Source of the DNA: Octopus vulgaris
Lineage: Eukaryota
Assembly (NCBI GenBank): GCA_951406725.2
Contig: OX597843.1
Location: 12,276,001 to 12,340,000, forward strand
Direction: 5' to 3'
Length of the DNA stretch: 64,000 bases
Made by a program: the position numbers and the translations under genes. Shown piece after piece: positions 931-54,900 of this stretch. The notes under the pieces are model-generated. The model did no database searches. It was given only the letters and a program-made list of their open reading frames with translations, and was not told the origin of the DNA. How positions within the stretch are numbered: position 1 is the first letter of the stretch; each line of letters starts with the position of its first letter.

Positions 931-3900
931 CTATAAACAACAAGGGAGAAAAACAAGAACATTAGTAAAAAATATATATGATTCAGGGCATCTGTTAATA
1001 TGATTTAGACTTGAACTCACAACTCTGTGATTACATGTCAAGTGCTTTACCTTTAAGCTAAACTGCCCAGTAAGCTAATGACAGGGATGTGAGTTTAAGC
1101 CTCATGGCTGGCCGGTAACAGATTTTTCTGCAATATATGGATAGTTTATCCTGTTCATGCTATTGTATTAGTGTGTATCATGCGTTTGAGAATAAACTGT
1201 GTCTGTATCTTTCGATACGTCTCAACACTCCTAAAGCAAACTTGGTTTACTTTTGTTGTAAAGTTGTGTATATATATATATATATATATATACACACCAC
1301 ACACACACACACACATATATATATATATACACACACACACACACACATATATATATATATATATGATAAAGTTGGTTTGTGAAAGCACGTGGTTGAATAT
1401 ATAGAAAATAGTAAGAAGTGAAAAAACTACAGAAGGCTTGTTTTAAAAGGTTAAAAAATATATATTTGAGTCAATATGTCTGATGTCATTGTAAGGAAAA
1501 AAATTTATAACATTCTTCAAACATATTGACTCAAATATATATTTTTTAACCTTTTAAAACAAGCCTTCTGTAGTTTTTTCACTTTTTACTATTTTATATA
1601 TATATATATATTTAGAAATTCAATATTTCTTATATATATATATATATATATATATAATTTATTTAAAGCAGCAGAAAATTCAACAAAACCTGTTACTCTG
1701 AGTTTCATGTTCCCGTTCGTTGGACAGTTTTTGCAAAAACGAACGGCAACGTGAAACTCAGAGTAACAGGTTTTGTTGAATTTTCTGCTGCTTTATTTGA
1801 GTACTCTTTTTTCCACCTTGTTTCACATTTATGTGTTTACTACGGTATATATATATATATATATGTATATCAACCATGTACCAGATGTTACACATTGCTG
1901 ATCACTATGCGTTTTCTTGCATTGTTTTAGCTATCCAATGATGCCATCCTGTTAGCTAGGTAGGCCAGCCACACACACACACATTAGATAGACGGATAGA
2001 TAAATAGATACACATGCACACACTAACACACACATGTGCAAAACACATGGCTACATTCAAAGAAATCCTACAAGAATAAGAAAAACAAAGAAAAAAAGGT
2101 TAAAACCTGAGTATACTCCATGTAATCAAAATATGTATGTATGATGGATTCTCTTGTCGTGAATGAGGGTTCAGTAAAATAAAGTAGTAATCATGTTCCA
2201 TGGACACGAATGCATCTCTTGAGGCTTGCTGGTTCCTTGCAAACCTTTTGGCTAATGGAACAAGTTGAGGACTCAGTTTGCTTGAGTGCTTGTGGGTCAT
2301 TTGCTATGTTTTTTCTCGAGTGAACAGCAAGGCCTGCTCTGCTTTGTAACCTCAAAACCCACAAAGACAGGTAAGGTGGCACGTAAAAGCACCCACTACA
2401 CTCTCAGAGTGGTTGGCATTAGGAAGGGCATCCAGCTGTAGAAACTCTGCCAGATCAGGACTGGAGCTTGGTGCAGCCATCTGGTTTGCCAGACATCAGT
2501 CAAACCAGAGTGGTTGGCGTTAGGAAGGGCATCCAGCTGTAGAAACTCTGCCAGATCAAGATTGGAGCCTGGTGCAGCCATCTGGTTCGCCAGTCAAACC
2601 GTCCAACCCATGCTAGCATGGAAAGTGGATGTCAAACGATGATGATGATCCTTTCTACTAGAGCCACAAGGTCTTGCCTGAGTGCTTTAGGGTCATTTAC
2701 TATGTGTTTTCTCGAATGGACAGCAAGGCCTGCTCTGCTTCATGCCACAAAACCACAAACACAGGAAAGGTGGTACGTAAAAGCACCCACTACACTCTCG
2801 GAGTGGTTGGCGTTAGGAAGGGCATCCAGCTGTAGAAACTCTGCCAGATCAAGATTGGGGCCTGGTGCAGCCATCTGGTTCGCCAGTCCTCAGTCAAACC
2901 GTCCAACCCATGCTAGCATGGAAATCAGATGTCAAACGATGATGATGATGATGATCCTTTCTACTAGAGCCACAAGGTCTGAAATTTGGACGAGAGGGAC
3001 AGTTGAGTACGTTGACCCCCAAGTACTCACCCAGTGCTTATTTTATCGACCCTGAAAGGATGAAAGGCAAAGTCGACCTCGGTGGAGTTGTAATGATGGA
3101 TGAAATACCAATAAGTATTCTGCTCAGCGTGCTAACGATTCTGGTAGCTTGTTGCCTTAACCCTTTAGTGTTCGCATTATTCTGCCAAAATTAATCCCCT
3201 TTTATCCTCATTGCCTTGAACTAATCATGCATTATCTTGTAGCTTTGAGATTTTGATGAGGTAGCTGTTAATTTTTAGAATGATATTGTAGGGTTGGTGT
3301 CAGAGACCAGATCTGGCCAGTTTGAACATAAAACAGGCAGAATACTTTTGGCTGGATATGGCCGGTTTAAATGCTAAAGGGTAAATGATAATAACAATAC
3401 AAACAACAATATAGGTAATCATAATAAAATATACGAACAAATATAGCATGCAACAACACACTAAACATAAAAATAATAATAATAATAAAGAATATAAAAA
3501 TAAAAATTAAAAAAAGAGCAAGCAGAAGGGAAGTGGGATGGCTGGTCAACAGTGATGGTCATGAGAGGAAATGCAAGGTAGGGTATGGGGATAGTGCCTA
3601 ACCCAGTGTGAGTGTGAAGAGGAGCCAGGTGGGGTGGTGGGAGATGGAGGTTTAGATTAAAGATAGGAGGAGGGAGGACAGCAGGCAGGAAGTGGATTGG
3701 CAATGGAGGTGATGGTCTTGGTGAGGATTAACCATGGCTGTGGTAAAAGGTAGTGGTAGGTGCAGAGAGTTGCTATGGAGATGAGGTGGTGGTAGTGGTA
3801 GCAGTGAGGTCTGGAAGTTCTAAAGCAGGGGTTCTCAACCATTTCTTACCTATGGACCCTTTTGATTATTATTTTATTCTGGTGGACCCTAATAGCCATT

Positions 3901-51900: not shown

Positions 51901-54900
51901 GTATGTATACACACACATATATATATACACACACACACATACATATATAAATTTGTGTGTCTGTATGTATATGTATGTATGTATACACACACACACACAT
52001 ATATATACACACACACACATACATACATATATAAATTTGTGTCTGTATGTATATGTATGTATACACACACACACACATACATACATATATAAATGTGTGT
52101 GTCTGTATATGTATGTATGTATACACACACATATATATATATACACACACACACATACATATATAAATGTGTGTGTCTGTATGTATATGTATGTATGTAT
52201 GTATACACACACACACATATATATATACACATACACATACATATATAAATTTGGGTGTCTGTATGTATGTATACACACACACATACATATATAAATTTGT
52301 GTGTCTGTATGTATATGTATGTATGTATACACACACACACACACACATATATATATACACACGCACTTGCACACATGAAGATGTATTTGTTTGCAAAAGA
52401 GAAAGAGGGGGGTGAGAGACAGAGAGAGATAGAATTAGACATGGATGGAATGCTGTACTGTGTGTGTGTCGACAACATCCTAAAAGAAACCCACTAATGA
52501 ATGGGTCGTGTGACATGTCAGTCACTGAACACGGTACAAGCTGATATGACGTCAAGCAGGAGAAAGAAAGGAAGCAAGAAAGGCCTTAAGGACACATGAA
52601 ACAGTGTAGTCCTAGATACACAACATCTAAGTTACAAGACAGGAACACTTTTGCTTGTAGGTCTACTTAGAACTAAACAACAGGATTATACAGTCACGAC
52701 CACCCACTGACATCACATAACTCTTCACTGTGTTTTCTGGTGTTATAGTCATATATATATTAATAACCTGATATATGACTGTGTAATACTAATTGAACTC
52801 TTAGAAACCAATATGTTATCTAAATTCTCATTTTTATAGAACTTTCTATGATGTTTCATAAGTGTAACATTACCCCCTTTGATGTTTGGGAATCTCTGAT
52901 GTTTTTTCGGCTGATGAGTACGAGCCACCTATATTTACTGCAATTTTTGTAGCTTTATTAAAGATGTCCTCATACGAAACAATTGTACCGATATATTGAT
53001 CCATTCTTGTTGCTTTTTTCCTATTTGTAATCACCCCACTTTGTCGTATGGCTAACACCATATAGATTTCCGGTGCATCCTAGTTAAGGACCATATTCAT
53101 GTGAATTCATTAGAACTCACTTGAATCTCAATTGCTTAAACCTATATACATATATATAAGAGTGTAAATATACTTAAATAAATATATTTACACACTCTAA
53201 GATGTTTGGAAAACCTATATGAAATTTAGCTGAAGATTACTTGACATTATATTTGCTGTAATATTTGCAGCTTTAATAAAATGTTTATAGTATGAAACAA
53301 TTGTACTAAATTACTGATCCATTCTTGTTGCTTATTTTTTGGTTTTAATCACCCCACATAATTTTATGGGTAACACCATAAAAAAATTCTGGTGCATCTA
53401 AGTTAAGTACCATATTCATTTGAATTTAAATTGTTTTGCTGAAATTATATATATATATATATATATATATATATATATATATATATAAAGACAGGGTTGT
53501 GGAATTCTTTAATTCCATCTTTAACCCACCCACCTCCAATTTGAAACTAAATCATAATTTTCATTTTTGTATTGGTTTGCAAACTCAAGTGTTGAAGCAT
53601 TTTTTTTTTTTGTATCTTGGGAGAGTCATTATGCCAATAAACACACACACTGGTACAATTTAACTTCTTTTTATTATTATTATTAATCAACTGGTTAACC
53701 ATTTAACCAACTGACTAATCGACTGTTTGATTCATCATTCAGTCGACCAATCAATAAGTTGTGTTTGTCAAAGTCCTGTTGTCGCCGTTAGTGACAGACA
53801 AATTGGAAGGTGAACAGGAGCCGAGAAGACATATCATTGAAGAGGCCATGAATGGAAATGAAGGGACCTTGGCAAACACAACTGAGAGACTGATTTATTA
53901 ATTAATCAATTAGTTCGTTGGTTAACAACAAATAATAAAGATTTCAAATTTTGGCACATCATCATCAGCATCATCGTCGTCATTTAATGTCTGTTTTCCA
54001 TGCTGGCATGGGTTGGACGGTTTGACTGAGGACTGGTGAGCCAGAGGCTGCACCAGGCTCCAATCTTGATCTGGCAGAGTTTCTACAGCTGGATGCCCTT
54101 CCTAACACCAACCACTCTGTGAGTGTAGTGGGTGCTTTTACGTGCCACCAGCACGAGGGCCAGTCAGGCGGTTCTGGCAACGACCATGTTTTTTACATGC
54201 TACCTGCACAGGAGCCAGTCCGGCGGCATTGGTAAAGACCACGCTCGAATAAGGCCAGAAATTTCAGGGGAGAGGATAAGTTGATTGATTACATCGACTC
54301 CAGTACTAAACTGGTGCTTCTTTTATCAACCCCAAAATGATGAAAGGTAAAGTTGACCCCACCAGAATTTGAACTCAGAACACAGAAACAGACGAAATGC
54401 CACTAAGCATTTTACCCAGTGCTATAACAATTCTACTAGCTCACTGTCTTCGATTGACAAGTAATAATAAAGAAGTGTAACAGAATCAGCGCATGTGTTT
54501 ATTATTGGCACAATGACCCTTCCAAGACACAACAGAAGTCATTATATTCCTTATATATCAACTGAGATCATACAAACACATATAGGCTAATAAGGATTAT
54601 CACACTACTTATTAAAATTCTAACTTGTTTGGATTTAATCCTCTGATATTCAGATTGCATTGACAAATGTAATTTTTTTGTTTATTCAGTGTTTTGGATT
54701 AATCATATATTATCCTGTAGCTTTGAGATTTCAATTATGCAAATTTTTATTTTTACATTGAAGGGTTGGTGTAAAAGGCCAGATCTGGCCAGTTTGAACA
54801 TGAAACGGATGGAATATTTTGGCTAAATATCACCAGTTCAAATGCTAAAAATTTAGCTATGTCGCCCTCGCTTTGTTTCTCATTTTCATCAAAACAGGAT

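What the first reader, a model, noticed from the sequence alone, without database searches (positions are those of the whole stretch)
1690..53312. Four to five hammerhead families in one gene, each with its own stem III sequence
Seen: stem III sequences are ACAATTGT (three copies), ACTGCAGT (two copies), ACGT, ACACGT (imperfect) and ACTC-A-GAGT. Most host inserts are flanked by (TA)n. Known: such minimal stems need a second copy to pair. Inference: the palindromes could act as family-specific dimerisation addresses, which would leave solo intronic copies inactive and harmless to the host pre-mRNA. The only intact same-strand tandem pair is antisense to PBRM1, consistent with selection against sense-strand dimers.
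Basis: inference. Interest (0 to 1): 0.7.

Follow-up and report, generated by a model that had tools for sequence, protein, structure and literature searches.

The report
Retroelement hammerheads in octopus PBRM1 introns
The introns of an octopus gene hold leftover copies of five families of jumping-gene self-cutting RNA motifs of a known kind that likely cut mainly in pairs; their palindromes are shared between unrelated families, so they are not family codes, but a pilot genome test hints that paired copies may be selected against on the gene's own strand.

Summary
The motifs are real: nine hammerhead-derived copies from five repeat families lie in PBRM1 introns (gene on minus strand) of an octopus genome with tens of thousands of such motifs. 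They are remnants of Penelope-like elements and retrozymes; palindromic helix III, dimer cleavage, several families per genome and (TA)n targeting are published. The 'family address' idea fails as stated: ACGT, ACCGGT, ACAATTGT and ACTC-N-GAGT each occur in unrelated families, and one lineage uses three palindromes. The 'intact tandem pair' is two separate insertions (77.5% alike), and the second has lost its stem II closing pair. I tested the selection idea genome-wide, using AT skew as a host-strand proxy (20 of 20 kinase genes correct). All 70 tandem retrozyme loci: 42 antisense-like to 28 (p=0.12). The 47 without an inverted arm: 33:14 (p=0.008). Solo copies: 25:26 (contrast p=0.04, uncorrected). 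Suggestive only; no host exon confirmed these calls. The scan found these families before on other DNA of this genome and rejected the code idea in another genome.

The parts
824..62814 (-). PBRM1 (polybromo-1) gene body; exons in window at 62814-62695, 58569-58495, 48307-48104, 38602-38471, 31612-31400, 26336-26295, 12218-11781 (in one isoform), 937-824; last coding exon lies just left of the window
   Evidence: tblastn of P0001/P0002 (labelled octopus polybromo-1) at 92-100% identity
1657..1846 (.). Family E insert: head-to-head inverted pair of Penelope-like 3' ends between (TA)n runs; minus arm hammerhead 1727-1690 (sense to PBRM1, core CCAACGA, dead), plus arm 1740-1769 (core truncated); predicted to fold as one long hairpin
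   Evidence: family lies about 1.1 kb 3' of an RT+GIY-YIG-type ORF in L153-L156
11075..11320 (+). Family A copy A1; hammerhead 11201-11291, core intact, 10.1-11.1 is G.U, helix III ACAATTGT; antisense, solo
   Evidence: 79-80% to best fetched relatives
13571..14198 (-). Family B (retrozyme-like, about 350-370-nt unit) partial tandem with one hammerhead B1 (core 13888-13882, C10.1.A11.1 mismatch, helix III ACTGCAGT); sense to PBRM1; predicted to be paired with the inverted arm in the pre-mRNA
14200..14603 (+). Inverted arm of the B insert with hammerhead B2 (core 14346-14352 TTGACAA = U3-A8 covariant, G10.1-C11.1, helix III ACTGCAGT); antisense
   Evidence: U3-A8 core in 11 of 36 aligned copies
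30804..30994 (+). Family C insert between (TA)n runs; intact minimal hammerhead 30878-30912 with extra nucleotide after A9 and helix III ACGT; antisense, solo
48605..48800 (-). Family D old copy; hammerhead 48736-48645, core and G-C closing pair intact, helix III ACACGT shortened by 2 nt from an 8-nt family palindrome; sense, solo, about 340 nt upstream of an exon
   Evidence: relatives 73-84% alike
52790..53148 (+). Family A copy A2 (younger subfamily); intact hammerhead 52907-52991, helix III ACAATTGT; antisense
   Evidence: 97.5% to L028 over 360 nt
53190..53445 (+). Family A copy A3 (other, older subfamily); hammerhead 53223-53312, core CTGAAGA, T/T at 10.1-11.1 (broken), helix III ACAATTGT; antisense; separate insertion from A2
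   Evidence: (85% to L040/L041, 77.5% to A2)

Best explanation
The nine motifs are type I hammerhead-derived ends of five Penelope-like or retrozyme repeat families that sit independently in PBRM1 introns, mostly at (TA)n, and they are likely inert in the host pre-mRNA. Their palindromic helix III likely lets two copies on one tandem element RNA swap helix III strands and cleave as a double hammerhead (published mechanism, not assayed here). The palindrome sets a compatibility class, not a family identity: different palindromes are predicted not to pair, but the same palindrome recurs in unrelated families, and pairing in cis with the next unit needs no address. In this window the four best-preserved copies are antisense and never on the PBRM1 RNA; the three sense copies are broken or predicted to be locked in hairpins with their inverted arms.
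For: Genome-wide families with zero control matches. Family E lies 3' of an ORF with YRDD, a Cys linker, GIY-YIG-like and CCHH-like motifs with 1,950 homologues of about 700 aa; family A flanks a related RT fragment (34% identity); the B lineage forms 353/359-nt tandem arrays. Head-to-head inverted pairs are typical (11 inverted vs 1 direct pair among 100 listed A copies, counted by eye), as described for PLEs (PMC8557442). 13 of 17 clusters seen at two or more loci have a palindromic commonest helix III; 0 of 9 hits on reversed sequence do. Palindromy is kept through a double change (ACTCGAGT/ACTGCAGT) within one lineage. Sharing: ACCGGT in 4 clusters, ACAGCTGT 3, ACATGT 3, ACGT 2, ACAATTGT 2; ACTC-N-GAGT in family E and a long-stem-II family. 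Homoduplex -6.4 to -11.1 vs heteroduplex +0.8 to -3.6 kcal/mol among the window's 8-9-nt palindromes. Solo intact copies show no strand lean (25:26).
Against: No cleavage or expression data; Pfam and PDB did not recognise the family E ORF, so its clade rests on motifs. Families C and D were not linked to an ORF here. All four best-preserved copies in the window are antisense (chance 1 in 16 one-sided), which could mean solo sense copies are not harmless. Coral and mussel retrozyme monomers self-cleave at about 0.8 and 0.1 per min (PMC7229834), and 8-9-nt helix III can form 2-3-bp hairpins (+2.1 to +2.9 kcal/mol), so the dimer requirement is strict only for ACGT.
Confidence: 0.8

Rival explanations
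1. Dimer safety lock with host selection: solo copies are neutral in either orientation, same-strand tandem arrays cleave host pre-mRNA and are partly purged from the sense strand, and an inverted arm neutralises them. Compatible with the best explanation and adds to it.
For: AT-skew proxy correct in 20 of 20 kinase windows. Tandem arrays with no opposite-strand copy 33 antisense-like to 14 sense-like (sign p=0.008; strong:7, p=0.03; outer flanks only 30:16); tandems with an inverted arm 9:14; pure solos 12:13, or 25:26 with incidental solos; Fisher p=0.04. Three ordinary SINEs show no antisense lean in kinase windows (16:14, 30:24, 14:18). An intronic ribozyme can lower its host mRNA (PMC10274809, abstract).
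Against: All 70 tandem loci 42:28, p=0.12. Rank test pure tandem vs solo p=0.08-0.21. Sign p ranges 0.008-0.38 across five skew statistics. Several groupings were examined; the contrast does not survive a threefold correction. One family only. No host exon found among 77 candidate ORFs; the 7 sense-like loci are rich in other transposons. No trend with copy number (rho 0.07). In PBRM1 one SINE leans 5:19 antisense, showing how uneven small samples are.
Confidence: 0.35
2. Strict family-specific dimerisation addresses: each family has its own palindrome, selected to avoid cross-family pairing.
For: The window's five families have five different palindromes; sister subfamilies have switched palindrome (ACTCGAGT, ACTGCAGT, ACCGGT) and are predicted not to cross-pair (-2.3 vs about -11 kcal/mol); ACTGCAGT kept in 34 of 36 copies.
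Against: Palindromes shared by unrelated families; family E's centre base varies and ACTCGAGT x ACTCAGAGT is predicted at -6.9 vs -7.4 for the E homoduplex; few possible AC..GT palindromes make reuse expected.
Confidence: 0.07
3. The 8-9-nt helix III motifs cleave as monomers and the palindrome is simply a short hairpin stem, so sense copies of any kind are selected against.
For: Invertebrate retrozyme monomers cleave (PMC7229834); all three sense copies in the window are defective.
Against: Loop positions are also self-complementary and covary (CG to GC); ACGT cannot form a hairpin; solo intact copies 25:26.
Confidence: 0.15

Closest known systems
Minimal and palindromic-helix-III type I hammerheads in pLTRs of metazoan Penelope-like elements (Cervera & de la Pena 2014, PMC4209133; Lunse et al. 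2017, known here only through review PMC6765202)
   Same: Type I topology, palindromic helix III, extra nucleotide after A9 (family C), U3-A8 covariant core (B2), several consensus families per genome, mostly single motifs, opposite-strand pairs 100-700 bp apart.
   Different: Family E lacks the G10.1-C11.1 pair (2-bp stem II with GCAA loop flanked by A and a variable base) and often has U4C, yet has over 8,000 copies; families A and D have 58-72-nt stem II arms. No octopus survey found.
Metazoan non-LTR retrozymes (Cervera & de la Pena 2020, PMC7229834; Li, Clavereau & Pollet 2026, 10.64898/2026.07.22.740005)
   Same: Non-coding 350-370-nt tandem units with one type I hammerhead each (B lineage); mild depletion from introns reported in Xenopus.
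   Different: The window's B insert has one hammerhead per strand, not an active tandem; circular RNA not shown. The Xenopus preprint has no occurrence of 'antisense' or 'orientation', so strand was not examined there.
Neptune/Nematis-type EN+ Penelope-like elements (Craig et al. 2021, PMC8557442)
   Same: C-terminal GIY-YIG-like domain after a Cys linker, CCHH-like end, 3' hammerhead, 5' inverted copies, (TA)n targets.
   Different: Clade not tested by phylogeny; only non-coding 3' ends are in the window.

Membership tests
Type I hammerhead ribozyme | CUGANGA and GAAA core with NUH site | tested here: met
   Met in A1, A2, A3, B1, C, D and, as U3-A8, in B2; not met in either E copy of the window, met in about half of listed E family copies by eye
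Type I hammerhead ribozyme | Stem I (4 or more bp) and stem II closed by G10.1-C11.1 | tested here: inconclusive
   Met in A2, B2, C, D; G.U in A1; T/T in A3; C.A in B1; absent family-wide in E
Type I hammerhead ribozyme | Self-cleavage | not testable with these tools
   Only contig data were offered
PLE dimer-type minimal hammerhead | Short palindromic helix III | tested here: met
   8 of 9 window copies; D has lost 2 nt; 13 of 17 multi-locus clusters
PLE dimer-type minimal hammerhead | Located in the terminal repeat of an RT + GIY-YIG element | tested here: inconclusive
   Met for family E and partly for A (RT fragment); not shown for C and D; Pfam silent on the E ORF
PLE dimer-type minimal hammerhead | Tandem/inverted insertion structure and (TA)n target | tested here: met
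PLE dimer-type minimal hammerhead | Cleaves as dimer, not monomer | not testable with these tools
   Energies only
Non-LTR retrozyme (family B lineage) | Non-coding 150-450-nt tandem units, one hammerhead each | tested here: met
   ACTCGAGT and ACCGGT subfamilies; the ACTGCAGT subfamily showed no same-strand pair in 30 of 30 loci
Non-LTR retrozyme (family B lineage) | Expressed as circular RNA | not tested
   Contigs cannot separate circles from genomic tandems

The most novel reading that the evidence does not exclude
The dimer requirement works as a safety lock visible in population-scale genome data: solo hammerheads are neutral on either strand, same-strand tandem retrozyme arrays cleave host pre-mRNA and are depleted about two- to threefold from the sense strand, and the inverted arm that Penelope insertion often adds cancels the cost by pairing with the ribozyme. 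That would be in vivo evidence that these weak ribozymes cut, and only in pairs.
Probability: 0.3. Interest if true: 0.6.

Novelty: new member of a known kind. Interest (0 to 1): 0.33.

Why it matters
The elements and their dimer mechanism are known. What remains open in print is whether PLE and retrozyme hammerheads cut in vivo at all (PMC4209133 and PMC8557442 both call their role unclear). Strand bias of tandem versus solo copies in introns is a cheap genome-wide readout of that, and this genome has enough copies; the pilot here leans in the predicted direction. Searches found no paper on orientation bias of these ribozymes, on octopus hammerheads or on cross-family pairing, within a library that lacks most subscription journals.

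Tried and rejected
Rfam: no gathering-level hit; the 150 listed of 326 weak hits were microsatellite matches to miRNA-type models. I first read 1690 as a plain inverted repeat and B2 as a dead core; both were revised. A pattern for ACTGCAGT with the sister family's stem II gave 0 matches because the subfamily has other cores; a family D pattern found only the window copy. The idea that the ACTGCAGT family is an alternating active/dead heterodimer was rejected: flanks of both core types are the same unit. Dating A2 and A3 with public contigs failed, paralogues swamp the locus. No RNA holder listed with raw reads. GC skew is not a usable strand proxy (12 of 20). Pfam on 77 exon-like ORFs from 47 pure tandem loci found only transposon domains and one sub-threshold chance match. 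Pfam, PDB did not classify the family E ORF. Forty planned family A solo windows could not be fetched, so only 7 of 47 were examined. Three of 73 tandem loci (tandem on both strands) were left out before counting; 17 of 117 tandem matches were not listed. Lunse et al. 2017 could not be read; bioRxiv supplements (intron tables of the 2026 preprint) were not seen and may bear on strand.
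Full report
Setting. The window is G000:C30:12276001-12340000 of a 2.8-Gb genome. The last PBRM1 exon is identical to proteins labelled octopus polybromo-1. tblastn places eight exons on the minus strand from 62814 to 824, with more on both sides, so the whole window is inside the gene and plus-strand motifs are antisense.

Observation. Status of each copy: A1 (11207, antisense) core intact, G.U closing pair; A2 (52911, antisense) intact; A3 (53230, antisense) T/T at the 10.1-11.1 closing pair; B1 (13888, sense) C.A at that pair; B2 (14346, antisense) U3-A8 covariant core with G-C pair, a variant described in PMC4209133 and seen in 11 of 36 aligned family copies; C (30882, antisense) intact; D (48731, sense) helix III shortened by 2 nt from an 8-nt family palindrome; E (1690) an inverted pair with one dead and one truncated core. 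(TA)n flanks 5 of 7 inserts on both sides. A2 and A3 are 77.5% alike; A2 is 97.5% like L028 and A3 85% like a different subfamily, so the 'tandem pair' is two insertions.

What they are. Each motif belongs to a genome-wide family: 414 strict A matches, 8,209 E, 501 for the B lineage, all with 0 control matches; 2,044 and 122 first-look candidates for B and D. Generic patterns give 6,898 and 19,647 matches against 499 and 351 controls. Family E lies about 1.1 kb downstream of an ORF with YRDD, a Cys linker, a GIY-YIG-like and a CCHH-like motif in 4 of 4 long loci fetched; it has 1,950 homologues of about 700 aa, though Pfam and PDB did not name it. This fits Neptune/Nematis-type Penelope-like elements as described in PMC8557442 (passages read), with 5' inverted copies and (TA)n targets; the clade was not tested by a tree. 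Family A flanks a related RT fragment. The B lineage forms non-coding tandem arrays of 353 and 359 nt, as in non-LTR retrozymes (PMC7229834, passages, first part of Results, Discussion).

Known mechanism. PMC4209133 (parts 1-2 of 4 read) reports palindromic helix III, several families per genome, mostly single motifs, opposite-strand pairs, inactive monomers and weakly active dimers. The review PMC6765202 (passages) says the same and cites Lunse et al., which I could not read. PMC7229834 adds that coral and mussel monomers do cleave, so 'needs a second copy' is certain only where no hairpin can form (ACGT); 8-9-nt stems can make weak 2-3-bp hairpins.

Address test. In 2.06 Mb of held sequence, enriched for hits, 390 motifs passed a structure scan against 9 on reversed sequence; 13 of 17 multi-locus clusters have a palindromic commonest helix III. 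Palindromy is maintained: one lineage with the same stem II uses ACTCGAGT, ACTGCAGT and ACCGGT. But palindromes are shared: ACCGGT by 4 clusters, ACAGCTGT and ACATGT by 3, ACGT, ACAATTGT and ACGTACGT by 2, ACTC-N-GAGT by family E and an unrelated long-stem family. Predicted duplexes show that different palindromes mostly do not pair (A x B -2.0 against -6.4 and -11.1 kcal/mol), with the exception ACTCGAGT x ACTCAGAGT at -6.9. So they define compatibility classes, an automatic property of palindromes, not family identities.

Selection test. No annotation was available, so I used AT skew of 10-kb windows as a proxy for host strand. It was T over A on the sense strand in 20 of 20 kinase genes (mean -0.047, SD 0.021) and in all 15 bins from window position 1 to 150,000. 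I took 70 of 73 listed tandem loci of the ACTCGAGT retrozyme (three with tandems on both strands left out), 23 solos of the same lineage and 7 family A solos. All tandems: 42 antisense-like to 28 sense-like (p=0.12). The 47 without an opposite-strand copy: 33:14 (p=0.008), strong:7 (p=0.03), outer flanks only 30:16. The 23 with an inverted arm: 9:14. Pure solos 12:13; with 26 incidental solos 25:26; Fisher p=0.04, rank test p=0.08. Across five skew statistics the sign p for pure tandems ran from 0.008 to 0.38 and the Wilcoxon p from 0.009 to 0.044. The pure/inverted split was in the script before results were seen, but several groups were examined and the contrast with solos does not survive a threefold correction. 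No host exon could be confirmed, there is no trend with copy number, and one family was tested. Seven of 47 pure tandems sit in strongly sense-like flanks, so any exclusion is partial or those flanks are other transposons. I rate it a lead at about 0.3.

How it likely works. Shown: family membership, structure, orientation, palindrome sharing. Inferred from published work: a tandem element transcript folds two hammerheads that exchange helix III strands and cleave to release a unit that a Penelope-type RT copies into (TA)n. Inferred here: the window's copies do nothing to PBRM1, since the good ones are antisense and the sense ones are broken or hairpin-locked. Untested: any cleavage.

Verdict. 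New members of a known kind; the code idea is rejected, the in-window selection argument is void, and a genome-wide strand bias of tandem arrays remains a testable lead. The scan has noted retrozymes of this genome many times (249 notes fit). Interest 0.33.

Noticed in passing
L224-L243 and window 1-64000: Strong transcription-linked strand asymmetry in this genome: T over A on the sense strand in 20 of 20 kinase gene windows; usable to infer gene strand without annotation.
   Followed up: yes
family E, window 1657-1846; L043-L062, L153-L156: Over 8,000 copies of a hammerhead with a 2-bp GNRA-capped stem II lacking G10.1-C11.1, often with U4C, including young copies attached to near-intact ORFs; many are tiny head-to-head hairpin inserts.
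   Followed up: partly
window 13571-14603; L174-L203: The ACTGCAGT subfamily carries two core types (CCGAAGA with C.A closing; U3-A8 with G-C) plus mosaics, and single inserts can have one type on each arm (window, L175, L202), suggesting two templates in one insertion.
   Followed up: partly
window 13780-13960 and G000:C30:16534936: A 99% identical copy of the B insert with the same arm junction lies 4.2 Mb away on the same contig (L175), a possible segmental duplication.
   Followed up: no
window 24053-25159: 102-bp array of 10.8 units, each with CTGATGA, a palindromic GCAATTGC after GAA and a possible 4-bp stem I, but no closing stem II and G-C in place of A15.1-U16.1; possibly a hammerhead-derived satellite.
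   Followed up: partly
window 11781-12218: PBRM1 exon rich in Val/Ala and Asn/Thr-type repeats, present in P0002 and absent from P0001: alternative exon about 500 nt from copy A1.
   Followed up: no
window 12987-13574: About 440-bp tandem duplication of host sequence (97.9% over 145 nt of its unique part) abutting the B insert.
   Followed up: no
L220: A family D relative carries ACAATTGT, the family A palindrome.
   Followed up: no
L295 and L247: Further tandem hammerhead arrays with 11-12-nt helix III that can form a monomer stem (7 and 3 copies).
   Followed up: no
window 15186-16019 and 26932-29115: Two arrays of the same 139-bp unit (6 and 15.7 copies) inside introns.
   Followed up: no
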